Source: Candidatus Rokubacteria bacterium 13_2_20CM_69_15_1 (GTDB lineage: Bacteria > Methylomirabilota > Methylomirabilia > Rokubacteriales > CSP1-6). From it: a stretch of DNA of 64,000 nt. Under the pieces are notes generated by a model. The model was not told the origin of the DNA, did not search any database, and saw only the letters and a program-made list of their open reading frames with translations. The stretch is from positions 3,791 through 67,790 of the forward strand of contig MNCR01000052.1 of NCBI GenBank assembly GCA_001914535.1, read 5' to 3'. Positions 5,952 through 54,829 of this stretch are shown piece by piece; position 1 is the stretch's first letter; each line of letters opens with the position of its first letter. A program made the translations under genes and the position numbers.

Positions 5952-6332
5952 TTACGACGCGGGCGGAGGTGGCGGCGGGGGAGGAAGTGGGTGCGCGTTG
6001 GGAATCCAGACCCACTGATAGGGGGTGTAGATGCCGTCGCCGCGGAGCTCGTACCGCCCGGTCGAGTACTGGACGACGGTGGGGTAAGCCGGCGAGGGCT
6101 GAACCACGACCACCTGAGACGGCGGCGCGTACACCTGGTGGTACACGGGTCGCTCCACGACGACCTCACGAACCGGTGGCCGCCGATGGAATAGAGGTCC
6201 GACGAGCTGGTTGAACACCGCGAAGGAAGCCAGCCCGAGGGCGACATTCGTGCCCGTGCCGGCATAGGCGGCCGGGGTTGCCGCGCCGACCATCAAGGCG
6301 AGTGCCACAACGAGAGCGATGACCTGACGCAT
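5952..6332 (-). CDS. Small secreted proline-rich hypothetical protein
   Basis: Signal peptide (MRQVIALVVALALMVGAATPAAYA), C-terminal poly-Pro tract. Confidence 0.45.
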   Translation of the reverse strand: MRQVIALVVALALMVGAATPAAYAGTGTNVALGLASFAVFNQLVGPLFHRRPPVREVVVERPVYHQVYAPPSQVVVVQPSPAYPTVVQYSTGRYELRGDGIYTPYQWVWIPNAHPLPPPPPPPPAS

Positions 6333-24860: not shown

Positions 24861-25460
24861 ATGGCCCAGCTGAGGATTCCTCTGGACGCGCAGCGATTCG
24901 CCAAAGGCCTGACCTGGAAGGAGTACATGGCCCAGATGGGCGACACTCGGGCCCGCACCGAGGACTTCTACCAGAAGGCGACGTTGACCGAAGAGGAACG
25001 GAAGTTCTTCGGCGGGATCCGCCAGGTCCCGTACGTGCTCATGCTCGCCGAGAACTGGTGCGGTGACGTTCACCGGAACTCGCCGCTGATCGCGCGCATC
25101 ACGGAAGCGATGCCGAGCTGCGAGCTGCGCGTGTTCTTACGGGATGCGAACCCGGACCTGCGCGACGCCTTCCTCAACAATGGCTACCAGTCCATCCCGG
25201 TCGTGGTCTTCTTCGACCGTGACTGGAACGAGATCGGGCGCTGGATCGAGCGTGCGCACGCCGCGACCGCCAAGGTCGTCGGGATCCGGGCCAAGACGCT
25301 CGAGCTCGCGCCCCCGGACAAGCAGGACGCCGCGATGGCCGAGTACCGGAAGCAGATCCAGAAAGAGTACGAGGTGCCCGGCGGCCCGCTGTGGCGCGCC
25401 GCCGCCCAGGAGATCCGGCTGCTGCTGGAGCAGCGGCTGGGGCTCGCGGCCAAGAAGTAG
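24861..25460 (+). CDS. Thioredoxin-fold family protein
   Basis: 199 aa. Trx-like fold with a WCGDV (single-Cys) motif. Confidence 0.5.
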   Translation: MAQLRIPLDAQRFAKGLTWKEYMAQMGDTRARTEDFYQKATLTEEERKFFGGIRQVPYVLMLAENWCGDVHRNSPLIARITEAMPSCELRVFLRDANPDLRDAFLNNGYQSIPVVVFFDRDWNEIGRWIERAHAATAKVVGIRAKTLELAPPDKQDAAMAEYRKQIQKEYEVPGGPLWRAAAQEIRLLLEQRLGLAAKK

Positions 25461-25511
25461 CGTCGGGTCGGTCCGCGCAACGCGGACGACGGTCGACGGA
25501 GCGCGTCGGCG

Positions 25512-26681
25512 ATGGTGGAGACCACTCAGAGTCTGCTCGCGATCGCGCGTGCCATCAGTGAGACGACCGACCTCACCGAGACGCTGCGGCGCGTCTGCCG
25601 CGAACTGTCGCGCCTGACCCGCGCGGAGACGGTGGCCGCCTACCTGCTCGACGCCGAGGGCACGGAGATCCGGCCGGTCGCCGCGTATCACGTCCCCGCG
25701 CACACGCTCGAGCTCTTGCGGGCGACGGCCCTTCCGGTCGCCGCGCAGGGGTTCGCCGAGAGCGTGTTCACGGCGGGGCGCGTGGCCTGGAGCGACGACG
25801 TGCAGAACGATCCTCGGTTCGCGTTCCCCCTGTTTCGGGTGTTCCCGCATCAGTCCGGCCTGATCATTCCACTCCAGGTCGGCGGCGTGGTGGCCGGCGC
25901 GTTCTATCTCGTCTGGTGGCGCACGCGGCAGCAGCAGCCTGAGGCCGGAGTGACGATCCTCGCAGCCATCGGGCAGCTGGTCGGGGTGCTGCTCCAGAAC
26001 GTCGGGCTCGCGCGCCTGGCGGAGGCGCGCCGCGGGTCGGCCGAGGCCGCGGAGGAGCGATACCGCCTGCTCTTCGAGGAGAACCTGGCGGGCATTCTGC
26101 GGACGCGGCGGGACGGTCGGATCCTCGACTGCAACGAGAGCCTCGCACGCCTGCTGGGCTACGCGTCACGCCAGGAGGTTCTCGGCCGCAACGCGCGAGA
26201 CTTCTATCTGGATCCGGGCGACCGCGAGAGAGTCCTGAGGGGCATCGAGCCCGGCGCCACGGCGAACGCGCGCGAGGTCTACTGGCGGCGCCGCGACGGC
26301 ACGCCGATCTGGCTTCGCGTGAACCTCCGGGCGACGGGCGACGGCTCGTTCGAGGGGATTCTCGTCGACATCTCAGACGGCAAGCGCGTCGCGCAGGCGG
26401 AGCGCGAGGCCGCGGAGCTCCGCGCCGTCGCGATGCTCGCGACCGGGGCCGCGCACGAGATCAACAATCCGCTCACGATCCTCCTCGGCCAGCTGACCCT
26501 CCTCGCGCGAGAGAATCCCGGCGGCCCGCGGCTCCCGAAGATCGTCGCGGCCGCCGAGCGAATCCGGGACATCGTCGGCCGCATGGCTGGCATCACCCGG
26601 ATCGAGGTGGCCCAGCAGTCCTCGGCAACGCTGCCGCCGATGCTCGACATCCGAAAATCGGGCGACGCCCCCGGCCCGTAG
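25512..26681 (+). CDS. GAF-PAS-HisKA protein lacking an HATPase_c domain
   Basis: N-terminal GAF. Central PAS (LFEENLAGILRTRRDGRILDCNESLARLLGY). H-box AAHEINNPLT. Ends about 60 aa after the H-box with no N/G1/F/G2 boxes. Confidence 0.6.
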   Translation: MVETTQSLLAIARAISETTDLTETLRRVCRELSRLTRAETVAAYLLDAEGTEIRPVAAYHVPAHTLELLRATALPVAAQGFAESVFTAGRVAWSDDVQNDPRFAFPLFRVFPHQSGLIIPLQVGGVVAGAFYLVWWRTRQQQPEAGVTILAAIGQLVGVLLQNVGLARLAEARRGSAEAAEERYRLLFEENLAGILRTRRDGRILDCNESLARLLGYASRQEVLGRNARDFYLDPGDRERVLRGIEPGATANAREVYWRRRDGTPIWLRVNLRATGDGSFEGILVDISDGKRVAQAEREAAELRAVAMLATGAAHEINNPLTILLGQLTLLARENPGGPRLPKIVAAAERIRDIVGRMAGITRIEVAQQSSATLPPMLDIRKSGDAPGP

Positions 26682-26744: not shown

Positions 26745-26800
26745 TACTGACGCCGCGGACGCCTCTGCTATGATTTGAACTGGTTCAACTCCGGACGATT
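26745..26800 (+). promoter_or_regulatory. Candidate sigma-70 promoter (CTGACG-16-TATGAT) followed by the palindrome TTGAACtgGTTCAA
   Basis: An AT-richer island in a 70% GC background, about 60 bp upstream of the TPR gene. Confidence 0.3.
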
Positions 26801-26832
26801 GCCGAGGAGGCCGTGGTCTGACTCAGAGAGTC

Positions 26833-27879
26833 GTGCGCTTGCTCCTCCTCGTCGGAATCGCAGAGGCCGCGTGCGCCACGCCGACGCCCCAGGCCCGTGC
26901 GCAGGCGTATCTCGCCGAGGGCCAGGCCTTCATCGCCCGGGGCGAGATGGCGTCGGCCGCAAGCGCGCTGCGCGCGGCGCTCCGCCTCCAACCCGACCTG
27001 GTCCAGGCCCGCTCGAGCCTCGGGCAGGCACTCTACGGTATGGGCGATCTCGACGCCGCGGTCGAAGAGCTCCGCGCGACCGTGCGACGGCGGCCCGACG
27101 CCGTATCGGCGCGGCTGACCCTGGCCGCGGCGCTCGTGGCGAAGCAGGACTGGGCGGCGGCGCGCGTCGAGCTCGAGCAAGTCCTCGAGGAGCGCCCCGA
27201 CCTCCTCCAGGCGTACTACAGCCTGGGCGTCGCGCGCTACGCGCAGGGCGATCGCGTCGGCGCGATCGACGCGTACCGCCGCGTCCTCGCGCGCGACCCG
27301 CAGCACCAGGACGCGCGCTACAACATGGCGCTCGTGCTGAAGCTGGTACACCGCGACGTCGAGGCGGCGTCGGAGTTCCTCACCGCCGCGCAGGCCGGGC
27401 ACGCGCAGGCGCAGTACTTCGCGGGCACGGCCTACGCCGAGGGGTTCGGTGTCGAGCGCGATCTGGTGACCGCGATCACGTGGTGGTTTCGGGCGGCCGA
27501 GCAGGGGGTGACGCAGGCCGAGGAAGCGCTCGCACAGCTTCGGCAGCTGGCGCTCGGGCGGAGCCGGCGTGTGTCGACCGATCGCCAGGCCGTCGAGCAG
27601 GCGTTCCGGGACTACCGGGCCGCACTCTGGCGGGACTTCCCGGACCTGGTATCGAACGGCGACGACACGGTGGGCGGGGCGCTCCTGCGCCGGGGGCGCG
27701 CGCGCGAGGCGGTGCCGGTGCTGATCCGGGAGGCCTCCGCGCTGAGCGAGCCGGCCGAGCGGCTGCTCGAGACCCTCTATGACCAGGGCGTCCAGGGATT
27801 GCTGCCCGCGCATGACGCGCAAATCCGCGGCTACTTCGGCCGCGCGGCCGCCGAGGGTCTGCGCACGCCGACCCGCTAG
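26833..27879 (+). CDS. TPR/Sel1-repeat protein
   Basis: Signal-peptide-like N-terminus. Repeated TPR units, and Sel1-like AQAQYFAGTAYAEGFGVERDLVTAITWWFRAAEQG. Confidence 0.7.
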   Translation: MRLLLLVGIAEAACATPTPQARAQAYLAEGQAFIARGEMASAASALRAALRLQPDLVQARSSLGQALYGMGDLDAAVEELRATVRRRPDAVSARLTLAAALVAKQDWAAARVELEQVLEERPDLLQAYYSLGVARYAQGDRVGAIDAYRRVLARDPQHQDARYNMALVLKLVHRDVEAASEFLTAAQAGHAQAQYFAGTAYAEGFGVERDLVTAITWWFRAAEQGVTQAEEALAQLRQLALGRSRRVSTDRQAVEQAFRDYRAALWRDFPDLVSNGDDTVGGALLRRGRAREAVPVLIREASALSEPAERLLETLYDQGVQGLLPAHDAQIRGYFGRAAAEGLRTPTR

Positions 27880-27902
27880 GAGGATTCGGGATTCTCCGCC
27901 GC

Positions 27903-30566
27903 GTGCTCCCGGCCGCGGTCATCGGCCTCGCGGCCAGCCTGGCGGCGACGGCCGTGGCCGTCTTCGCCGGCGCCGGCCTCACCGCGCTCGAGTGGTCGGT
28001 CTACGATCATCGTATGCGCGCGCGCGAGCCGGCGTCCGTCAGCCCCGCGCTGGTGGTCGTCGCGCGCGACCCGGCGAGCGAGGCTCGATTCGGCGCGGGT
28101 CCGTGGGACCGGGCGTTGCTCGCCCGGCTCATCACGGGCCTCTCCCGCGCTGGCGCCGCGGTCATCGGTGTCGACGTGCCCCTCGGGCAGCCGAGCCTGC
28201 CCGGTCGTGGCGGCGCCGGGAGCGACGCGTTGCTGAGCCAGGCGACCGCGCTGGCGGACAACGTCGTCTACCCGATCGCGCTCGACCCGGCCGGGGCAGC
28301 GGCGGACCCCGGCTCCCCGAGCCACGCATCCTGGCCACCGCTCTCGCAGATCTCGCTGGCGCTGCCGGCCGCGGGGTCGCGCGTCGGCCCGCTGCCCGGG
28401 CTTGCCCGACACGCCAGGGCCGTCGGCCACACGCTCGCGCCGGCCGATCCCGACGGCGTCGTACGCAGGGTTCCGCTCTTCGTCCGAGTCGACGACCGCG
28501 CGGTGCCGGCGCTCGGCCTGGCGCTGGCGATCGCGTCCGCGAGCGCGTCGGCGGATCGGATCGCGATGGATGGCCGCGGGGTGACGGTCCCCCGTTCGGG
28601 CACGATCGCCGTCGACTCGCGCGGCCGGGCGCTCGTCGGCTACGTCGCGCCGGAGCGGCTCACGGTCGTGCCATTCCTCGACATCTGGACGGCCATCGAC
28701 GCCTCGCAGGCCCAGACGCTCCGAGGCTTGGTCGAGGACAAGATCGTCCTGGTGCTCGCCGAGCCCGCGCACGGGCTCTCTCGAACGCCCATCGGCCCCA
28801 TGTCCGACATCCTGATCCAGGCGGAGCTACTCAACGCCGTGCTGGCGGGCTCGTGGCTCAGAGCCGCGCCGCTCGGGTGGGCCCTGGCGGCCACGCTCGC
28901 CGTCGCGGCGATCGCGGCGTGGCTCGGCCTGGCGCTCGCCTGGTGGAAGGGGCTGGTCGGCGTCGCGGCGCTGACGTCGGGCTATACCGCGCTTGTCCTC
29001 CTGGCGCCCGCGCTGATCGGCGTCCTGTTGCCGGTGGTCCCGCCGCTCGCAGCGGTGGTCGTGGCCTGCGCCGGAGCGCTCCTGTGGAACCAGGTCGGCT
29101 CCGCCTATCGCCTCCGGCGCCTCGAAGGCGAGGCCGAATCGATCCGCGAGGCCCTGGTGCGCCGAGAGTCCACGGTGGAGGGGCTGGAAGAAGACCTCGA
29201 GGCGGCGCGCGCCGCGGTGGCGCGATCGACCGGGGCCGAGCGCGAGCTCCTCCAGGCCGTGGACGGGCTGCGGGCCCAGCTCACCGACGCACGCGCGCTG
29301 GAGGCAGAGACACGAGGCCGGCTCACCGAGCTCGAACGCGAGCTACGCGCCGCCGACACCCGACACGTGCAGCTCGACGATCCCGCCCACGAGCGATTGC
29401 GGCGACAGTGTGCGGAGGTCTCCATCATCACCCGCGAGCCCGCGGTGCTGTCGCGCTTCCGGGATCTGGAGAAGGCCGCGCGCTCGTCCCTGCCGATCCT
29501 CATCCTCGGCGAGCCGGGAACGGGCAAGGAGCTGTTCGCACGGGCGGCCCACCGCCTGAGCTCGCGCGCCAGCGGGCCGTTCGTCGCGGTGAACATGGCC
29601 GCCATTCCGACCGAGCTGTTCGAGAGCGAGCTGTTCGGCCATGCGAAGGGGAGCTTCACGGGCGCGGTCGCCGAGCGCAAGGGGTACTTCGAGCAAGCGG
29701 ATGGCGGGACGATCTTCCTGGACGAGATCGGCGAGCTCCGAGCTCCAGACCAGAGCAAGCTGCTCCGGGTCCTTCAAGAAAAGACCTTCTACCGGGTCGG
29801 GGCAACACGGCCCACCGCGGTGGACGTTCGGGTCGTCGCCGCCAGCAACCGGGATCTCGAGCGCGGCGTCGCGGAGGGCTGGTTCCGTGAGGACCTCTAT
29901 TTCCGTCTGAAGGGCCTCGTTCTCCGGCTCCCGTCGCTGCGCGAGCGGCGCCAGGACGTGGCGCCGCTGGCGGCGCGCTTCCTCGAGGAAGCCGCAGCCG
30001 AGGCTTCCCGGCGCGTCACGCTGTCGGAGGCCGCGCTGCGCGCGCTCGAACGGCACCCCTGGCCCGGCAACGTCCGGGAGCTGCAGCACTGTCTTCGTCA
30101 GGCCGTCGCGCTCGCCGATCGAGCGGTCCTGGTCCCCGAGGACCTGCGGCTCGCCCCGGCCCCGGACGCGACGGTCGACGCGGGGAGCGACGCGGCGGTC
30201 CTCCTCTGCCTGCGCCAGCACGGATTCGATATGCAGGCGACGGCGCGGGCGCTCCAGTGGGACCGGAGCACGGTGACGCAGCGACTCAAGGGCCTGGGCT
30301 TCCGTGCGCTGGTCGAGGCCGGTGGGGATCGGCGGAAGGCCGCGCTGGAGCTGGCCGGCGACCCGGCGCTCGGCCGCGCCGTGGAGCTGAAGCTTTCCGA
30401 ATACCACGAGCACCTGCTGAGGGCCGTCGAGGGCATCGACTCCGTCGAAGCCGCGCTGGCCGCGTGCCGGCGGCGCTTCAAGAACCTGCCCGAGCGTCAC
30501 TTCCGCTCGCTCGAGTTCCTGGTCCGCCAGCGCTTCGAGGGACAACCCCCGAAAGCCCGCGTCTGA
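27903..30566 (+). CDS. Membrane-bound CHASE2-sensor sigma-54-dependent transcriptional activator (bEBP) with C-terminal Fis-type HTH
   Basis: N-terminal TM helix, periplasmic CHASE2 region, three further TM helices, coiled coil. AAA+ sigma-54 interaction domain with Walker A GEPGTGKE and GSFTGA (GAFTGA-type) loop. HTH_8 (ATARALQWDRSTVTQRLKGLG). Confidence 0.85.
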   Translation: MLPAAVIGLAASLAATAVAVFAGAGLTALEWSVYDHRMRAREPASVSPALVVVARDPASEARFGAGPWDRALLARLITGLSRAGAAVIGVDVPLGQPSLPGRGGAGSDALLSQATALADNVVYPIALDPAGAAADPGSPSHASWPPLSQISLALPAAGSRVGPLPGLARHARAVGHTLAPADPDGVVRRVPLFVRVDDRAVPALGLALAIASASASADRIAMDGRGVTVPRSGTIAVDSRGRALVGYVAPERLTVVPFLDIWTAIDASQAQTLRGLVEDKIVLVLAEPAHGLSRTPIGPMSDILIQAELLNAVLAGSWLRAAPLGWALAATLAVAAIAAWLGLALAWWKGLVGVAALTSGYTALVLLAPALIGVLLPVVPPLAAVVVACAGALLWNQVGSAYRLRRLEGEAESIREALVRRESTVEGLEEDLEAARAAVARSTGAERELLQAVDGLRAQLTDARALEAETRGRLTELERELRAADTRHVQLDDPAHERLRRQCAEVSIITREPAVLSRFRDLEKAARSSLPILILGEPGTGKELFARAAHRLSSRASGPFVAVNMAAIPTELFESELFGHAKGSFTGAVAERKGYFEQADGGTIFLDEIGELRAPDQSKLLRVLQEKTFYRVGATRPTAVDVRVVAASNRDLERGVAEGWFREDLYFRLKGLVLRLPSLRERRQDVAPLAARFLEEAAAEASRRVTLSEAALRALERHPWPGNVRELQHCLRQAVALADRAVLVPEDLRLAPAPDATVDAGSDAAVLLCLRQHGFDMQATARALQWDRSTVTQRLKGLGFRALVEAGGDRRKAALELAGDPALGRAVELKLSEYHEHLLRAVEGIDSVEAALAACRRRFKNLPERHFRSLEFLVRQRFEGQPPKARV

Positions 30567-30602
30567 CCGGGAACCTGCGTGGACGCGGGGCTCCAGAGCG
30601 GG

Positions 30603-30624
30603 GATGCGGGGCTCTCCCCGCATC
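30603..30624. promoter_or_regulatory. Perfect 9-bp-arm palindrome GATGCGGGGctctCCCCGCATC (candidate UAS for the adjacent bEBP)
   Basis: Seen in sequence. Lies about 85 bp upstream of the -24 element. Confidence 0.4.
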
Positions 30625-30686: not shown

Positions 30687-30702
30687 TGGCTCGTGTGTTG
30701 CT
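30687..30702 (+). promoter_or_regulatory. Sigma-54 (-24/-12) promoter-like element TGGCTC-N5-TTGCT
   Basis: GG-N10-GC spacing is exact. One mismatch to TGGCAC-N5-TTGCW. About 30 bp upstream of the OmpA-like ATG and its GGAGG RBS. Confidence 0.5.
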
Positions 30703-30730
30703 CTCCCTCCTTTTCCAAGGAGGAACGGCC

Positions 30731-31333
30731 ATGGACAACACACAGCAGCAGGCAACCGGGACGCGAAGCGGGAAGGAGGTGGCGATGCTCGTCGGAGTGC
30801 TCCTGATGGTCGTCGCCGGAACGATCACGACATACTGGGTGAGCTCGAGGAGCACGGAGGAGACCCCGGCCAAGCCGGACGTGGTCACGCCCCTTGCCGG
30901 CGCAGCGACGAGCCCCGGCCTCGGCGTCGTCCACAGCGACGTCTACTTCGACTTCAAGAGCGCACGCCTCCGGGCCGACGCCGTCCGCGTCCTTCAGGAG
31001 ACCGTCACGCTCCTGGGCCGGGCGAGCGCCTGGGTGGTGCTCGTTCAGGGCTATGCCGACCGTCAGGGCCCGCCCGAGTACAACAGGGTTCTGGCGCTCC
31101 GGCGCGCGGAGGCCGTCAAGCAGTTTCTGGTCGAGCTCGGCGTCCCGGACGCCTCGGTCAAGGTCGTCACCATCGGGCAATACGGTGCTCTCTGTGACGA
31201 CCCGAGCAAGGAGTGCCAGCAGATCAACCGTCGGGTGCACGTCGAGATCCGGAAGCTCGCCCCCGCTGCCGCCGCGCCTATCCGGGCGACGACTGCGGAC
31301 GGCGATGCGCAGGCTACACCGGCTCGTCCGTGA
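30731..31333 (+). CDS. OmpA/MotB-family peptidoglycan-binding protein with N-terminal membrane anchor
   Basis: Single TM (VAMLVGVLLMVVAGTITTYW). OmpA_C domain (VLVQGYADRQGPPEYNRVLALRRAEAVKQFL). Confidence 0.8.
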   Translation: MDNTQQQATGTRSGKEVAMLVGVLLMVVAGTITTYWVSSRSTEETPAKPDVVTPLAGAATSPGLGVVHSDVYFDFKSARLRADAVRVLQETVTLLGRASAWVVLVQGYADRQGPPEYNRVLALRRAEAVKQFLVELGVPDASVKVVTIGQYGALCDDPSKECQQINRRVHVEIRKLAPAAAAPIRATTADGDAQATPARP

Positions 31334-32649
31334 CCGGCTGAGGAACGAGCGTCTCCGCCCGGCCCGTGTCGCGGGTCGGGCGGAGACGCGATGGCGACTA
31401 CGCGACGATCTCGATGGCCTGTGCGAACACCGCGGACGCCCCGCCGCAGGCACTCTACGTTGAAGGCCCTGAGGCGCGCCCCGTCCGCCGTGAGTGTCGC
31501 GCGGTAGTCGGTGATCGGCCGATCGGTGAAGACGACGTCGAAGACCGTGGTCTCCCCGATCACCTGCGCCGCCAGGCTGGACTTCCGGACGATGTCGGCC
31601 AGGCCGTCGCGCAGCGTCCGGCCGGTTCGGTGGAGCCTCGCGTACGCGCCGGGCTTCCGGAGCTCGGCGAGCGTGGCGAGTCCGGCGACGGCCGCGACGG
31701 GGTTGCCGTTCAGCGTGCCGACCTGCGCGACGAAATCCGGGGTGCCTTCCAGTTGCGGATCGAAGGCGCGCATGATCTCCCGCCGCCCGCAGACGGCGGC
31801 GAGCGGGAAGCCGCCGCCGATGATCTTGCCGTACGCGGCGAGATCAGGAACGACGCCGTAATACTCCTGGGCGCCGCCGTAGGCGAAGCGGAATCCGGTG
31901 ACGACCTCGTCGAAGATCAGCGGGATCCCGTGGCGCCGCGTGAGCGTGCGGAGCCCCTCGAGGAAGCCGGGCTCGGGCGGGATGAGCCGCTGGAACGGCT
32001 CGACGATGACCGCAGCCAGCGCGTCGGCGTACACCGCGACGAGCGCCTCGACGGTGGCGAGGTCGTTGTAGGGGGCGATCAGCACCTCGCCCTCGAGGAC
32101 GTGCGGGATGCCCGCCGAGTCCGCCGTGGCGGCGGGGAACGCCTTGGGCGACTTCGGCGACGCGCTCATCAGCGCATAGTCGTGGCTGCCGTGGTACCCG
32201 CCCTCGAACTTCATGACCTTCTCGCGCTTACGGTAGGCGCGCGCCGCTCGGAGCGCGAAGAAGGTCGCCTCGGTTCCGGTCGACGTGAAGCGTACCTGTT
32301 CGGCGCACGGCACCGCCCGACAGAGCTCATCGGCCAGCGCGACGACGGGCTCGTTCACGAGGAAGTAGGTGGTTCCGTGCTCGAGCTGGGCCCGCACCGC
32401 CGCCACCACCGCCGGGTGCGCGTGACCCAGGATCATCGGGCCGGAGCCCATGAGGTAGTCGATATACTCGCGCCCGCTCACGTCGTAGAGCTTGGATCCG
32501 CGACCGCGCTTGACGATGAACGCGAGATCGTCCGGGAGCCGCGCCGATCCAAGGACGCCGCCGGGCAGAGCGCGCGCCGCGGTTTCGAGAATGCGCCGTT
32601 CTTCGTCCGATCGCGCTCCGTCCATGTCGGCTCTGCCTCCCGGCGCCAT
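31063..32649 (-). CDS. Class III (GSA-aminomutase-like) aminotransferase; 3' end aberrant (possible pseudogene or frameshift)
   Basis: ATG at 32649 after a GGCGGAGG RBS. PLP-fold motifs (YLMGSGPMILGHAHP, DEVVTGFRFAYGGAQ). The canonical roughly 40-aa C-terminus after ...AFNVECLRRGV is absent. The frame reads through the hairpin into the convergent OmpA-like gene. The biologically meaningful end is probably near 31400-31440. Confidence 0.6.
   Translation of the reverse strand: MAPGGRADMDGARSDEERRILETAARALPGGVLGSARLPDDLAFIVKRGRGSKLYDVSGREYIDYLMGSGPMILGHAHPAVVAAVRAQLEHGTTYFLVNEPVVALADELCRAVPCAEQVRFTSTGTEATFFALRAARAYRKREKVMKFEGGYHGSHDYALMSASPKSPKAFPAATADSAGIPHVLEGEVLIAPYNDLATVEALVAVYADALAAVIVEPFQRLIPPEPGFLEGLRTLTRRHGIPLIFDEVVTGFRFAYGGAQEYYGVVPDLAAYGKIIGGGFPLAAVCGRREIMRAFDPQLEGTPDFVAQVGTLNGNPVAAVAGLATLAELRKPGAYARLHRTGRTLRDGLADIVRKSSLAAQVIGETTVFDVVFTDRPITDYRATLTADGARLRAFNVECLRRGVRGVRTGHRDRRVVAIASPPDPRHGPGGDARSSAGHGRAGVACASPSAVVARIGAAAAGASFRISTCTRRLICWHSLLGSSQRAPYCPMVTTLTEASGTPSSTRNCLTASARRSARTLLYSGGP
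31351..31387. terminator. GC-rich hairpin with 16-bp stem (one mismatch) and no U-tract, between convergent genes
   Basis: gtctccgcccggcccg-tgtcg-cgggtcgggcggagac. Begins 18 nt after the OmpA-like stop. Confidence 0.45.
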
Positions 32650-33319
32650 CACGCGCCTCCGCCTGTGTCGTGCCGTGGCGCAAGCGTACAAGGTTTTGGG
32701 CGACTCCACGAGCCCGAGGACGCGGTTCTTGAACCTCCGGATCGGGCCACCTACACTGTGGCCACTCGCGAAACCGGTGGTGGCCTCGGGGAGAGCGAGA
32801 CCGATGAGAGAGCTCGTCTTCGCCCTGGAGTTCAGAGGAAGCGCCGGGCCGCTCCCCGGCGCCGAGGGCAGGCGCCGAGCGAGAACGTGGGCCTCTAGCC
32901 AGGTGTTCCGCACCGTATTCCGCGGGGGTGAGGTCCGGGCGTCGGTCGAGCTCGAGGGTGACGGCGTCGCCGTTCTCGAGTCGGAGGTTCAGGTGACCGG
33001 GAAGGGCACGTTCGTCGAGTCGGGCACGATCAGTTACGGCGACGCCGGTCGGGTCACGTTTCGAACGGTCGGGCAGGGAGTGACCGGCCCGAGCGCGATC
33101 GCGGGGCTCCGGCACGGCGCCGTGATCTGGGAAGTCACCCAAGGGGAGGGCCGCCTCGCAGGGGCTCGGGGATTCATCACCTCGAATTTCACGGTCGGGC
33201 CCGACGGGCAGGTGACCGACAACCATTTCGTCCGACTCTTCCTGCCTTGACAGTCCAATCCCTCAGGACGGGATGGCGCGGACGAAGCCCGCGCTCGAAC
33301 GGTGGCCCCTCCAGCGCGC

Positions 33320-54388: not shown

Positions 54389-54829
54389 GTGATGAGTAAC
54401 CCTGTGGCACGCCTGTTGATCGTGGACGATGACGCCGAGTTCGTCGAGAGCCTGAGGGCTTCCCTGGTGGCGTTGGGCTATGAAATCGACCGCTCCTCGC
54501 ACGGTGCAGACGCCCTCATGGCGATTCGCCTGGTGCGTCCTGACGTCGTGCTGCTCGACATCCGGATGCGCGGACTCAGCGGCGTGGAAGTTCTCAAGCG
54601 TATCCGCGCGATGGATAGCAGCATCCCCGTGATCATGGTCACCGCCGCCGACGATCCTGTGCTCATCCGCGAAACGCGCGAGATCGGCGCCTACGGCTAC
54701 CTCGTCAAGCCGATCGAGCTCCATCGCCTGGCGCGGATGGTCGCCGGAGCGGCAACGCTGTCCCGGGGCGAATCGGACAATCGCGTGCGGCTGGTGCCGA
54801 CTGGAGCGAAGAACAGCAGTCCTTCGTGA
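54389..54829 (+). CDS. Single-domain response regulator (CheY-like receiver), orphan
   Basis: LLIVDDD, phospho-acceptor D in VLLDIRMRGLSG, and the VIMVTA/KP motif. Confidence 0.8.
   Translation: MMSNPVARLLIVDDDAEFVESLRASLVALGYEIDRSSHGADALMAIRLVRPDVVLLDIRMRGLSGVEVLKRIRAMDSSIPVIMVTAADDPVLIRETREIGAYGYLVKPIELHRLARMVAGAATLSRGESDNRVRLVPTGAKNSSPS

What the first reader, a model, noticed from the sequence alone, without database searches (positions are those of the whole stretch)
27903..30566. Rare architecture: membrane-anchored CHASE2 periplasmic sensor fused to a sigma-54 AAA+ activator and Fis-type HTH
Most bacterial enhancer-binding proteins are soluble and controlled by receiver, GAF or PAS domains. 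Here the N-terminal 430 aa form a TM helix, a CHASE2 ectodomain and three further TM helices. A coiled coil follows, then a complete sigma-54 interaction domain (GEPGTGKE Walker A, GSFTGA loop) and an HTH_8. This implies direct transmembrane signalling to sigma-54-dependent transcription without a separate kinase. A TPR/Sel1 protein is encoded immediately upstream and may be co-transcribed.
Basis: partly seen in the sequence, partly recalled or inferred. Interest (0 to 1): 0.6.

Follow-up and report, generated by a model that had tools for sequence, protein, structure and literature searches.

The report
Membrane-bound sigma-54 activator with envelope target
This gene encodes a transcription activator that sits in the cell membrane, senses outside the cell through a CHASE2 domain, and most likely switches on the neighbouring cell-envelope gene directly; the design is unstudied but common in two groups of soil and water bacteria.

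Summary
An intact 887-aa ORF (27903-30566, +) encodes TM1, a CHASE2 ectodomain, three TM helices, an 87-residue coiled coil, a sigma-54 AAA+ domain (GEPGTGKE, GSFTGA) and a Fis-type HTH. "Rare" is not correct. The same full-length architecture occurs in all 120 listed 90%-identity clusters and in 46 species-representative genome loci of Rokubacteria (Methylomirabilota) and Nitrospirota, including cultured Nitrospira moscoviensis. It also occurs in at least 37 50%-identity clusters. New here: (1) an exported TPR/Sel1 protein is encoded immediately upstream in 46 of 47 loci. (2) A sigma-54 -24/-12 box (30687-30702) and clustered ATGCGGGG half-sites (30585-30624) precede the downstream OmpA-like gene. 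Both elements are conserved in both phyla and stay with that gene when it lies kilobases from the activator. (3) In many relatives that promoter also drives a VIT/vWA sortase substrate and a class GN sortase; this window has lost them. (4) The HTH is part of a seven-helix C-terminal module with no solved relative. Most likely this is a one-component transmembrane sigma-54 activator of an envelope cassette, analogous to PrsK/PrsR/PrsT with sensor and activator fused. No paper found describes it. DNA binding, the signal, and tethered versus cleaved action are inferred.

The parts
26747..26774 (+). sigma-70-type promoter candidate for the TPR-activator operon (CTGACG-16-TATGAT with TG extended -10)
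   Evidence: It is the only match in 25.4-31.5 kb; shuffles average 0.2. TGCTATGATTT is identical in the window, L007 and L008 while the flanks diverge.
26818..27879 (+). TPR/Sel1 exported partner protein gene (canonical GTG at 26833; probable CTG start at 26818)
   Evidence: Pfam finds TPR_11/TPR_16/TPR_1 plus Sel1. Orthologues carry lipoprotein signal peptides in Rokubacteria and Sec signal peptides in Nitrospira. The gene lies immediately upstream on the same strand in 46 of 47 loci with upstream sequence.
27903..30566 (+). CHASE2-sigma54 activator gene, 887 aa (probable true start ATT 27891)
27993..28862 (+). periplasmic CHASE2 ectodomain (aa ~31-320), between TM1 (27903-27992) and TM2
   Evidence: Pfam CHASE2 E 8.3e-39. 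Alpha/beta fold with pLDDT 70-90. Invariant R55 D56 S59 R62 W68 D69 ... G175 H176 D184 G185 R188.
28863..29093 (+). TM2-TM4 (aa 321-397)
   Evidence: Hydropathy. Model helices 324-344, 347-367 and 379 onward. Basic residues lie on the predicted cytoplasmic sides.
29094..29417 (+). cytoplasmic coiled-coil linker (aa 398-505), continuous with TM4
   Evidence: Single heptad register over aa 398-484. Helix 379-441 is continuous with TM4. Homologue indels are 7 or 11 residues long.
29418..30152 (+). sigma-54 interaction AAA+ domain and lid (aa 506-750): Walker A 536, GSFTGA 583, Walker B 604
   Evidence: Pfam E 2.2e-64. Foldseek to NtrC1/FleQ/FlrC gives TM 0.85-0.91, rmsd 2.2-3.1 and ~44% identity. 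GSFTGA is invariant in 19 aligned homologues.
30189..30563 (+). C-terminal DNA-binding module (aa 763-887): Fis/NtrC-type HTH plus a ~90-aa helical extension
   Evidence: The HTH aligns to the end of the NtrC DNA-binding domain. The extension is among the most conserved parts of the protein. The 7-helix model has pLDDT 86.6 and pTM 0.76. No PDB match has E <= 0.001. The recognition helix is invariant across both phyla.
30585..30624 (.). candidate enhancer (UAS): GCGGGG at 30585, 30598 and 30606 plus inverted CCCCGC at 30616; core palindrome ATGCGGGGCTCTCCCCGCAT at 30604-30623, centred ~75 bp upstream of the -24 GG
   Evidence: In 901 kb of family loci, 17 of 18 strict palindromes lie within 900 nt upstream of an OmpA-like gene; shuffles average 1.4. 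The element stays with the OmpA promoter when 5 kb (L003) or 2-8 kb (Nitrospira) separate it from the activator gene. A motif-only metagenome scan recovered the system in 14 of 80 loci.
30687..30702 (+). sigma-54 promoter (-24/-12): TGGCTCGTGTGTTGCT
   Evidence: One mismatch to TGGCAC-N5-TTGCW. An RBS AAGGAGGA (30717-30724) and the ATG at 30731 follow it. The box is conserved upstream of the OmpA-like gene in both phyla.
30731..31333 (+). regulated gene: bitopic inner-membrane protein with a C-terminal OmpA-like peptidoglycan-binding domain (200 aa)
   Evidence: Pfam OmpA E 3.5e-14. N-terminal TM helix MLVGVLLMVVAGTITTYWV followed by a Pro/Ala-rich linker. It scores 45 bits against PdsO TIGR03789, below the cutoff of 152.

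Best explanation
The gene encodes a one-component, membrane-integral sigma-54 activator.

Shown:
- It is an intact member of a conserved family with the order TM1, periplasmic CHASE2, TM2-4, about 87 residues of coiled coil continuous with TM4, an NtrC-type AAA+ domain with an invariant GSFTGA loop, and an NtrC/Fis HTH inside a seven-helix C-terminal module.
- It is paired with an exported TPR/Sel1 protein encoded just upstream.
- The next gene downstream, a membrane-anchored OmpA-like peptidoglycan-binding protein, is preceded by a conserved sigma-54 -24/-12 box and by clustered ATGCGGGG half-sites at a fixed distance.
- In many relatives the same promoter region also precedes a VIT/vWA sortase substrate and a class GN sortase.

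Inferred:
- The TPR-activator operon is made from a sigma-70 promoter.
- The CHASE2 domain, probably together with the periplasmic TPR/Sel1 partner, senses an envelope or extracellular cue.
- The signal passes through TM4 and the coiled coil and controls assembly of the AAA+ domains into an active ring. This follows the logic by which the linker helix controls NtrC1 and DctD.
- The C-terminal module binds the ATGCGGGG sites as dimers.
- The ring contacts sigma-54 holoenzyme at 30687-30702 and ATP hydrolysis opens the promoter.
- The activator works while tethered. This is plausible because its gene lies next to its target and the targets themselves encode membrane or exported proteins, so the locus is held near the membrane during co-translational insertion.

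In this genome the sortase and its substrate have been lost, and the local regulon is the OmpA-like gene alone.
For: Architecture.

Family conservation:
- All 120 listed full-length homologues carry CHASE2 plus Sigma54_activat.
- There are 46 full-length loci in Rokubacteria and Nitrospirota, including N. moscoviensis.
- Of 48 long sensor-half relatives, 37 carry the AAA+ module and 32 also carry the C-terminal module.

Partner protein:
- The TPR/Sel1 gene is adjacent in 46 of 47 loci.
- Orthologues have signal peptides or lipoboxes.

Target promoter and enhancer:
- The -24/-12 box and palindrome occur upstream of the OmpA-like gene in every locus inspected in both phyla.
- 17 of 18 strict palindromes in 901 kb lie upstream of OmpA-like genes; shuffles average 1.4.
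- The palindrome-to-(-24) spacing is 78-80 bp in most Rokubacteria and 118-121 bp in Nitrospira.
- The elements stay with the OmpA gene when it is separated from the activator.
- In Nitrospira L027 the site lies downstream of a minus-strand ORF with no Pfam match and upstream of the plus-strand OmpA gene, so it cannot be the activator gene's terminator there.
- A palindrome-only metagenome scan recovered 14 system loci out of 80, all 14 with a -24/-12 box.
- The recognition helix and the half-site core are both invariant across the two phyla.

Cassette identity in sister loci: VIT/vWA scores 737-751 bits against TIGR03788 (cutoff 552), and the sortase scores 203 bits against TIGR03784 (cutoff 158).

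No receiver domain and no conserved kinase.

Sigma-54 availability:
- A Nitrospira genome encodes rpoN (PMC8553950).
- Sigma-54 and its activators co-occur almost perfectly across genomes (PMC3162934).

Precedent for the logic: PrsK/PrsR/PrsT with a sigma-54 motif upstream of exosortase substrates (PMC1569441).
Against: - Nothing here shows DNA binding, ATPase activity, sigma-54 dependence or membrane localisation; all of these are inferred.
- rpoN was not found in the 64-kb window or in 1.43 Mb of fetched loci, and its presence in this organism is untested.
- About half of the Nitrospira loci, including N. moscoviensis, have no OmpA-like gene or palindrome within 10 kb. Adjacency is therefore not universal, and tethered action on a distant target would be harder.
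- The 16-nt palindrome alone is not unique. 66 of 80 metagenome hits are an unrelated REP-like repeat or terminator hairpins.
- The palindrome can fold as a 9-bp RNA hairpin, so it could also act as a terminator for the activator gene in the window.
- The L1 loop is GSFTGA rather than the canonical GAFTGA.
- The full-length model is only moderately confident in the TM region, with pLDDT 51-66.
Confidence: 0.7

Rival explanations
1. Same protein and same target, but the activator is inactive while tethered. A signal triggers proteolytic release of the soluble coiled-coil/AAA+/HTH fragment, which then acts like an ordinary soluble enhancer-binding protein.
For: It would explain the loci where no target lies within 10 kb, such as N. 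moscoviensis. A variable, low-confidence segment (aa 486-491, pLDDT below 50) separates the coiled coil from the AAA+ domain. Ring assembly at a looped promoter is easier for a free protein.
Against: No protease gene is conserved in the neighbourhood. The coiled coil keeps a continuous heptad register from TM4 to aa 484, and its indels are 7 or 11 residues long, which points to a conserved mechanical link rather than a disposable tether. The putative cleavage segment is not conserved.
Confidence: 0.2
2. The palindrome is not an enhancer. It is a terminator or REP-like structural element that happens to lie there, and the activator's real binding sites and regulon are elsewhere.
For: The same 16-mer is a multi-copy REP-like element in unrelated metagenome contigs and occurs as a terminator hairpin in AT-rich contigs. 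In the window and in L003 it lies downstream of a plus-strand gene. It folds as a 9-bp GC-rich hairpin.
Against: No U-tract follows it. Its spacing to the -24 box is fixed within each phylum. In Nitrospira it lies kilobases from the activator gene, and in L027 it follows a minus-strand ORF rather than the end of a plus-strand gene. Extra half-site copies flank it in both phyla. It co-occurs with the system genes far above background, 17 of 18 against a shuffle mean of 1.4. The REP-like copies have different flanks and no -24/-12 box.
Confidence: 0.08
3. In this genome the gene is a relic. With the sortase and VIT/vWA genes lost, the activator no longer has a meaningful function, or it is not a sigma-54 activator because of the GSFTGA loop.
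For: The sortase and substrate are absent from the 64-kb window. The window has a further deletion next to the OmpA-like gene. The loop departs from GAFTGA.
Against: The ORF is intact, with every catalytic motif, and is 76-99% identical to relatives. Six other Rokubacterial species share the OmpA-only arrangement and keep the promoter and enhancer intact. GSFTGA is invariant in all 19 aligned homologues and is the commonest form in the 50%-identity representatives, including loci that keep the sortase cassette. It is therefore a family trait, not decay.
Confidence: 0.04
4. The activator is the output of a conventional phosphorelay with the neighbouring GAF-PAS-HisKA protein (25512-26681).
For: The gene lies about 150 nt upstream of the TPR gene on the same strand.
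Against: The activator has no receiver domain. The HisKA protein has no HATPase_c domain. It is absent from that position in the closest relative L007 and from the other loci.
Confidence: 0.02

Closest known systems
NtrC1/DctD/NtrC-type bacterial enhancer-binding proteins
   Same: The AAA+ core, lid, L1 loop, Walker motifs and arginine fingers match: TM 0.85-0.91 and ~44% identity to NtrC1, FleQ and FlrC. The C-terminal HTH is of NtrC/Fis type. A helical linker in front of the AAA+ domain is a likely place for assembly control.
   Different: There is no receiver domain. The input is a membrane-integral CHASE2 sensor with four TM helices. The L1 loop is GSFTGA. The DNA-binding module has seven helices, against the 3- or 4-helix bundle described for the class (PMC7175178), and has no solved structural relative.
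PrsK/PrsR/PrsT regulators of the PEP-CTERM/exosortase system (Haft 2006, PMC1569441)
   Same: A sigma-54 activator and a TPR lipoprotein go together with a conserved upstream DNA motif and a -24/-12 box in front of genes of a C-terminal protein-sorting system. Weak sequence echoes exist: the TPR protein hits PrsT and the activator hits PrsR.
   Different: Here the transmembrane sensor and the activator are one polypeptide, with no kinase or receiver. The sorting enzyme is a class GN sortase, not an exosortase. Scores are far below both family cutoffs (275 against 502.6; 59 against 312). The lineages are Rokubacteria and Nitrospirota rather than Proteobacteria.
Dedicated Gram-negative sortase cassette (class GN sortase TIGR03784, VIT/vWA target TIGR03788, PdsO TIGR03789)
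   Same: Sister loci carry true members of the sortase and target families in the same order: OmpA-like, VIT/vWA, sortase. Haft 2011 (PMC3237569) describes the dedicated, strictly Gram-negative sortase next to its single target.
   Different: From my own memory of TIGRFAMs, not checked here, the proteobacterial system is paired with a two-component pair (PdsS/PdsR). Here the regulator is the CHASE2-sigma54 fusion plus a TPR/Sel1 protein. The OmpA-like protein does not reach the PdsO cutoff. The Rokubacterial targets carry G-Q-G-A-T instead of LPXTG. The window itself lacks the sortase and its target.
ToxR/CadC-type membrane-tethered one-component transcription activators (own knowledge)
   Same: A single polypeptide spans the membrane, senses in the periplasm and acts on DNA from the membrane. 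Periplasmic partner proteins are common in this class.
   Different: Those proteins have an N-terminal OmpR-type winged helix, one TM helix and a C-terminal sensor, and they activate sigma-70 promoters. This protein has the opposite polarity, four TM helices and an ATP-driven AAA+ ring, and it acts on sigma-54.
CHASE2 receptors with other outputs such as adenylate cyclases, Ser/Thr kinases, histidine kinases and GGDEF proteins (own knowledge; Pfam PF05226)
   Same: The sensor module has the same topology, one TM helix before and three after the ectodomain, followed by a helical linker to the output.
   Different: The output is a transcription machine rather than a second-messenger or phosphorylation enzyme. 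Of the 48 closest long sensor relatives, 11 lack the sigma-54 module and presumably carry such other outputs (their domains were not identified).

Membership tests
Bacterial enhancer-binding protein (sigma-54 activator, Pfam PF00158) | AAA+ sigma-54 interaction domain above the family cutoff, with Walker A and Walker B | tested here: met
   216.6 bits against a cutoff of 20.2, covering profile positions 1-166 of 168. GEPGTGKE is at 536 and IFLDE at 604. The fold matches NtrC1/FleQ/FlrC with TM 0.85-0.91.
Bacterial enhancer-binding protein (sigma-54 activator, Pfam PF00158) | GAFTGA L1 loop that contacts sigma-54 | tested here: inconclusive
   The loop is GSFTGA (aa 583-588), with F and T retained. 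It is invariant in 19 aligned homologues, and GSFTGA, GSFSGA and GAFTGA all occur in more distant members. Whether Ser at position 2 is functional was not tested.
Bacterial enhancer-binding protein (sigma-54 activator, Pfam PF00158) | Acts on a -24/-12 promoter from upstream binding sites | tested here: inconclusive
   A conserved -24/-12 box and clustered half-sites lie next to the gene and co-occur with the family. Binding and activation were not testable.
Bacterial enhancer-binding protein (sigma-54 activator, Pfam PF00158) | rpoN present in the same genome | not testable with these tools
   There is no RpoN box in the window or in 1.43 Mb of fetched loci. A Nitrospira genome has rpoN (PMC8553950).
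CHASE2 sensor domain (Pfam PF05226) | Profile match above the cutoff | tested here: met
   134.1 bits against a cutoff of 26.3, aa 16-344. The N. moscoviensis orthologue scores 77.6 bits.
CHASE2 sensor domain (Pfam PF05226) | Extracytoplasmic location between one N-terminal and three C-terminal TM helices | tested here: met
   Supported by hydropathy, model helices and basic residues on the predicted cytoplasmic sides. This is a prediction only.
NtrC-family response regulator | N-terminal receiver domain with a phospho-acceptor Asp | tested here: not met
   Neither Pfam nor NCBIfam finds a receiver domain, and all NCBIfam equivalog scores are below their cutoffs.
PrsR / PrsT (PEP-CTERM regulatory system) | Score above the TIGR02915 and TIGR02917 cutoffs | tested here: not met
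   The activator scores 275.1 bits against 502.6. The TPR protein scores 59 bits against 312.2.
Dedicated Gram-negative sortase cassette | Class GN sortase (TIGR03784) and VIT/vWA target (TIGR03788) encoded next to the OmpA-like gene | tested here: not met
   Both are absent from the whole 64-kb window by tblastn at E 1e-3. The feature is met in sister loci: 203 bits against 158, and 737-751 bits against 552.
Dedicated Gram-negative sortase cassette | PdsO-type OmpA-like protein (TIGR03789) | tested here: not met
   45.2 bits in the window and 52.7 bits in L002, against a cutoff of 152.2. Only the OmpA domain aligns.
ToxR/CadC-type membrane-tethered activators | N-terminal OmpR-type winged-helix domain, single TM helix, C-terminal periplasmic sensor | tested here: not met
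   The domain order is the reverse, there are four TM helices and the HTH is Fis-type.

The most novel reading that the evidence does not exclude
This family is a distinct, membrane-integral class of sigma-54 activators that work while tethered. They assemble an AAA+ ring under the membrane, at an enhancer held there by co-translational insertion of the neighbouring envelope genes. The periplasmic CHASE2 domain and the TPR/Sel1 partner would act as an envelope-state sensor. The family would also be the dedicated regulator of the Gram-negative sortase/OmpA-like envelope module in Nitrospira and Rokubacteria. That would give CHASE2 its first defined single-promoter output and the Gram-negative sortase its first defined regulator.
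Probability: 0.4. Interest if true: 0.75.

Novelty: new variant of a known kind. Interest (0 to 1): 0.55.

Why it matters
**Enhancer-binding proteins.** These activators are described as soluble proteins controlled by receiver, GAF, PAS or partner proteins. A 2020 review of the class never mentions a transmembrane member. A family that places the ATPase ring at the end of a coiled coil growing out of a four-helix membrane sensor raises a concrete mechanistic question: how does a tethered ring reach sigma-54 at a looped promoter?

**CHASE2.** The signal and transduction mechanism of this domain remain poorly understood. A CHASE2 receptor with one predicted promoter as its output offers a simple genetic read-out.

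**Gram-negative sortases.** The work links the little-studied class GN sortase/VIT-vWA/OmpA-like envelope cassette to a specific regulator, promoter and enhancer. This holds in Nitrospira, which are globally important nitrite oxidisers and include a culturable strain, and in the uncultured Rokubacteria.

**Sigma-54 and the envelope.** The result fits the proposal that sigma-54 mainly controls the bacterial exterior (PMC3162934).

Tried and rejected
- **GAF-PAS-HisKA as kinase partner.** Rejected. It has no catalytic domain, the activator has no receiver domain, and the gene is an insertion absent from the closest relative.
- **Sortase and VIT/vWA genes elsewhere in the window.** None found. 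The 3.9 kb that L007 has beyond the OmpA gene holds unrelated genes, NicO-like and EEP.
- **rpoN by RpoN-box search.** None in the window or in any fetched locus.
- **Geobacteraceae activators that seemed to match the C-terminal extension (L075, L076, L084).** They are Fe-S/hydrogenase-like activators that end right after a normal HTH.
- **Palindrome as intrinsic terminator.** The hairpin is possible, but there is no U-tract and the z-score of the region is only -1.6.
- **Literature.** 'CHASE2' combined with sigma-54, sigma54 or enhancer-binding gave 0 papers. Combined with NtrC it gave 4 papers, only generic. Searches for transmembrane activators gave nothing relevant. Bush & Dixon 2012 and the N. 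defluvii genome paper are not held.
- **No tRNA genes in the window**.


Full report
**1. Observation**

The window has about 70% G+C. ORF 27903-30566 (+) is uninterrupted and encodes 887 aa.

Pfam finds these domains:
- CHASE2, aa 16-344, E 8.3e-39.
- Sigma54_activat, aa 508-673, E 2.2e-64.
- AAA_lid_14, aa 680-750.
- HTH_8, aa 769-796, 19 bits, below the cutoff of 22.

Hydropathy gives TM1 at aa 1-30 and a hydrophobic block at aa 321-397. An AlphaFold model built on 19 homologues has mean pLDDT 75.9. It resolves the block into helices 324-344, 347-367 and 379 onward, and the last helix runs without a break from the membrane to residue 441.

Residues 398-484 fit a single heptad register. LIVMF occupy 60% of a/d positions and 6.5% of the others, and shuffles rarely reach this (3/2000 and 12/2000). 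Homologues differ here by indels of 7 or 11 residues. The coiled coil is therefore real.

The AAA+ core superposes on NtrC1, FleQ and FlrC with TM 0.85-0.91 and ~44% identity. NCBIfam places the protein in no named equivalog and finds no receiver domain.

**2. 'Rare' does not hold**

- A search of 5.8 billion proteins returned 347 hits. All 120 listed are full-length with CHASE2 plus Sigma54_activat, at 58-99% identity. The named ones come from Rokubacteria/Methylomirabilota. JGI already labels them 'NtrC family response regulator/CHASE2 domain-containing sensor protein'.
- A scan of one genome per species found 46 loci that match the query across essentially its full length. They come from Rokuibacteriota/Methylomirabilota (56-77% identity) and Nitrospirota (43-54%), including the cultured Nitrospira moscoviensis NSP M-1. 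Pfam confirms the architecture there.
- A search with the sensor half alone against 1.84 billion 50%-identity representatives gave 74 hits at E <= 1e-30. Of the 48 hits of at least 600 aa, 37 carry the sigma-54 module and 32 also carry the C-terminal module, with CHASE2 identity down to about 25%.

The architecture is old and common in these lineages. It is unstudied. Full-text searches combining CHASE2 with sigma-54, sigma54 or enhancer-binding found no paper. A 2020 review of the protein class does not mention transmembrane members.

**3. The conserved neighbourhood**

*Upstream partner.* The TPR/Sel1 gene lies immediately upstream on the same strand in 46 of the 47 loci that have upstream sequence, in both phyla. 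L049 is the only exception. Its orthologues begin with lipoprotein signal peptides in Rokubacteria (…LLGC, …ASGC, …AQAGC; …AEAAC in the window) and with Sec signal peptides in Nitrospira. The partner is therefore exported into the compartment that holds the CHASE2 domain.

*Operon promoter.* A sigma-70-type promoter with an extended -10 (26747-26774) precedes the pair. Its -10 is identical in the two closest relatives that have sequence there.

*Not part of the module.* The GAF-PAS-HisKA and Thioredoxin_9 genes further upstream are an insertion specific to this genome.

**4. The target**

The gap after the activator gene contains, in order:
- GCGGGG at 30585, 30598 and 30606, and the inverted CCCCGC at 30616. 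The core palindrome ATGCGGGGCTCTCCCCGCAT spans 30604-30623.
- TGGCTCGTGTGTTGCT at 30687-30702, one mismatch from TGGCAC-N5-TTGCW.
- AAGGAGGA at 30717-30724.
- The ATG at 30731 of a 200-aa protein with an N-terminal TM anchor and an OmpA-like peptidoglycan-binding domain.

Both DNA elements recur upstream of the OmpA-like gene in every related locus inspected, in both phyla. The evidence that they belong to a promoter and enhancer is as follows.
- In 901 kb of family loci there are 18 strict GCGGGG-N4-CCCCGC palindromes, and 17 lie within 900 nt upstream of an OmpA-like gene. Shuffled sequence averages 1.4 palindromes.
- The distance from palindrome to the -24 box is 78-80 bp in most Rokubacteria and 118-121 bp in Nitrospira.
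- The elements travel with the OmpA-like gene. In L003/L004 a 5-kb insertion separates that gene from the activator gene. In Nitrospira the separation is 2-8 kb.
- In L027 the site lies downstream of a minus-strand ORF with no Pfam match, not at the end of a plus-strand gene, which excludes a simple terminator role there.
- Extra half-site copies flank the core in both phyla.
- The HTH recognition helix (FDMQ.TA..LGWDRSTVTQRLKGL) is invariant across both phyla, and so is the half-site core.

As an unbiased test I searched metagenome contigs for the 16 specified bases of the palindrome alone.
- 14 of the 80 returned loci are this system. 13 have an OmpA-like gene directly downstream, and in the fourteenth the contig ends. 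The TPR-activator pair is on the same contig in 10 of the 14. All 14 have a -24/-12 box.
- The strict promoter pattern matched 8 of these 14, at 69-82 or 121-123 bp. The other six have variant boxes that I read from the printed sequences.
- The other 66 loci are an unrelated multi-copy REP-like element or AT-flanked terminator hairpins. None has the system's genes.

The bare palindrome is therefore not unique, but the extended signature is.

**5. What the promoter drives**

In many relatives the OmpA-like gene is followed by a VIT/vWA protein and a sortase. These are true members of the 'marine proteobacterial sortase target' family (737-751 bits; cutoff 552) and of the class GN sortases (203 bits; cutoff 158). 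This is the dedicated Gram-negative sortase cassette that Haft described (PMC3237569). The OmpA-like protein does not reach the PdsO cutoff.

The window has no sortase or VIT/vWA gene anywhere in its 64 kb. Six other Rokubacterial species share this OmpA-only arrangement and keep intact regulatory DNA. The regulator and the OmpA-like gene are thus kept after the sortase is lost.

About half of the Nitrospira loci, including N. moscoviensis, have no cassette within 10 kb.

**6. The C-terminal module**

The HTH aligns to the last 37 residues of the NtrC DNA-binding domain. In this family about 90 further residues follow it, and they are among the most conserved in the protein (…CRRRFKNLPERHFRSLE…). 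Modelled alone, residues 752-887 form a compact seven-helix domain with pLDDT 86.6 and pTM 0.76. It has no PDB match at E <= 0.001; only about 31 HTH residues superpose on the NtrC4 DNA-binding domain. The review describes the usual DNA-binding domain as a 3- or 4-helix bundle.

**7. Mechanism**

Shown: the architecture, the topology prediction, the partner's export signal, and the conserved promoter and enhancer and their association with the family.

Inferred:
- The CHASE2 domain, together with the TPR/Sel1 partner, senses an envelope or external cue.
- TM4 and the coiled coil transmit it.
- AAA+ assembly is the controlled step, by analogy with the linker-controlled NtrC1 and DctD (own knowledge; cited).
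- The C-terminal module binds the half-sites.
- The ring remodels sigma-54 holoenzyme at 30687-30702.

Whether the protein acts while tethered or after proteolytic release cannot be decided here. For tethering: the conserved, register-preserving coiled coil, the absence of a conserved protease gene, and the cis arrangement next to genes for membrane proteins. For release: the loci with no nearby target.

Sigma-54 itself was not found in the sequence available. A Nitrospira genome is reported to encode rpoN, and activators and sigma-54 co-occur almost perfectly across genomes.

**8. Comparison and verdict**

The closest analogue in logic is PrsK/PrsR/PrsT. That trio is a transmembrane kinase, a sigma-54 response regulator and a TPR lipoprotein, with a conserved motif and a sigma-54 box upstream of exosortase substrates. 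Here the sensor and the activator are fused, the sorting enzyme is a sortase, and the scores are far below those families' cutoffs. The protein is a true enhancer-binding protein and a true CHASE2 protein. It is not an NtrC-type response regulator, and it is not a ToxR-like protein.

I rate it a new variant of a known kind. The architecture is visible in databases but undescribed. The partner, the promoter, the enhancer and the sortase link are, as far as I could search, new.

Noticed in passing
window 27879-27905: The activator probably starts at ATT 27891 rather than GTG 27903. GGAGGA (27879-27884) lies 6 nt before the ATT, and the in-frame codons ATT CTC CGC CGC encode I-L-R-R. This matches the conserved basic N-terminus (..ILRRALPAAVIGL) of homologues.
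   Followed up: partly
window 26804-26835: The TPR/Sel1 gene may start at CTG 26818, 7 nt after GAGGAGG, rather than at GTG 26833, which is 22 nt away. AGGAGGCCGTGGTCTGAC.CAGAGAGTCGTG is conserved in five relatives. A CTG start would give a signal peptide of normal length ending in the lipobox-like AEAAC.
   Followed up: partly
window 24861-26681: The Thioredoxin_9 gene and a GAF-PAS-HisKA protein that lacks an HATPase_c domain form a ~2-kb insertion absent from the syntenic position in the closest relative L007. A kinase without a catalytic domain is odd in itself.
   Followed up: partly
window 31063-31450 (minus strand): The class-III aminotransferase ORF (31063-32913, minus strand) loses similarity to its L007 orthologue about 126 nt before that gene's stop. 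It then reads on into the antisense of the OmpA-like gene. Relative to L007 the window lacks 3.9 kb (NicO-like and EEP genes), so a deletion appears to have clipped the aminotransferase's 3' end.
   Followed up: partly
L002 11236-13236, L003 16357-18399, L010, L100 versus L015, L019, L020, L025, L027, L028: The VIT/vWA sortase substrates end in LPKT[AG]-TM-basic in Nitrospira. In Rokubacteria the equivalent position reads G(L/A/F)GQGAT-TM-basic, so the class GN sortase there may recognise a non-LPXTG signal.
   Followed up: no
L087, L093, L103, L112, L120-L122, L134, L137, L150, L154 and others: An unrelated multi-copy REP-like element (…CCCGGCACGGGGCTT…CATGCGGGGCAAGCCCCGCATCTAC…, often in pairs 42 nt apart) shares the 16-nt palindrome. 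It is abundant in contigs from a few samples (Ga0182740, Ga0206116-8, Ga0222427, Ga0153956).
   Followed up: partly
L020, L031, L033, L044 (alignment A3 columns 101-114): A conserved block, GAACCCCTGAATTT, lies midway between the palindrome and the -24 box in several Nitrospira promoters. That is where an IHF-type bending site would be expected.
   Followed up: no
L041 (Nitrospira moscoviensis NZ_CP011801.1, 739971-762463): The TPR/Sel1-activator pair is present, but there is no OmpA-like gene, palindrome or sortase within 10 kb. A Mu-like transposase (rve plus Mu-transpos_C_2) lies about 3.5 kb downstream, so the target may have been moved.
   Followed up: partly
L049 3091-6087: This is the only full-length family locus with about 3 kb of upstream sequence and no TPR/Sel1 hit. 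It is also the most divergent member (52% identity in the C-terminal module).
   Followed up: no
window 6292-6307 (-) and 54405-54420 (+): Two further one-mismatch matches to TGGCAC-N5-TTGCW (TGGCACTCGCCTTGAT and TGGCACGCCTGTTGAT). The window as a whole has fewer such matches than shuffled sequence, so these may be chance.
   Followed up: no
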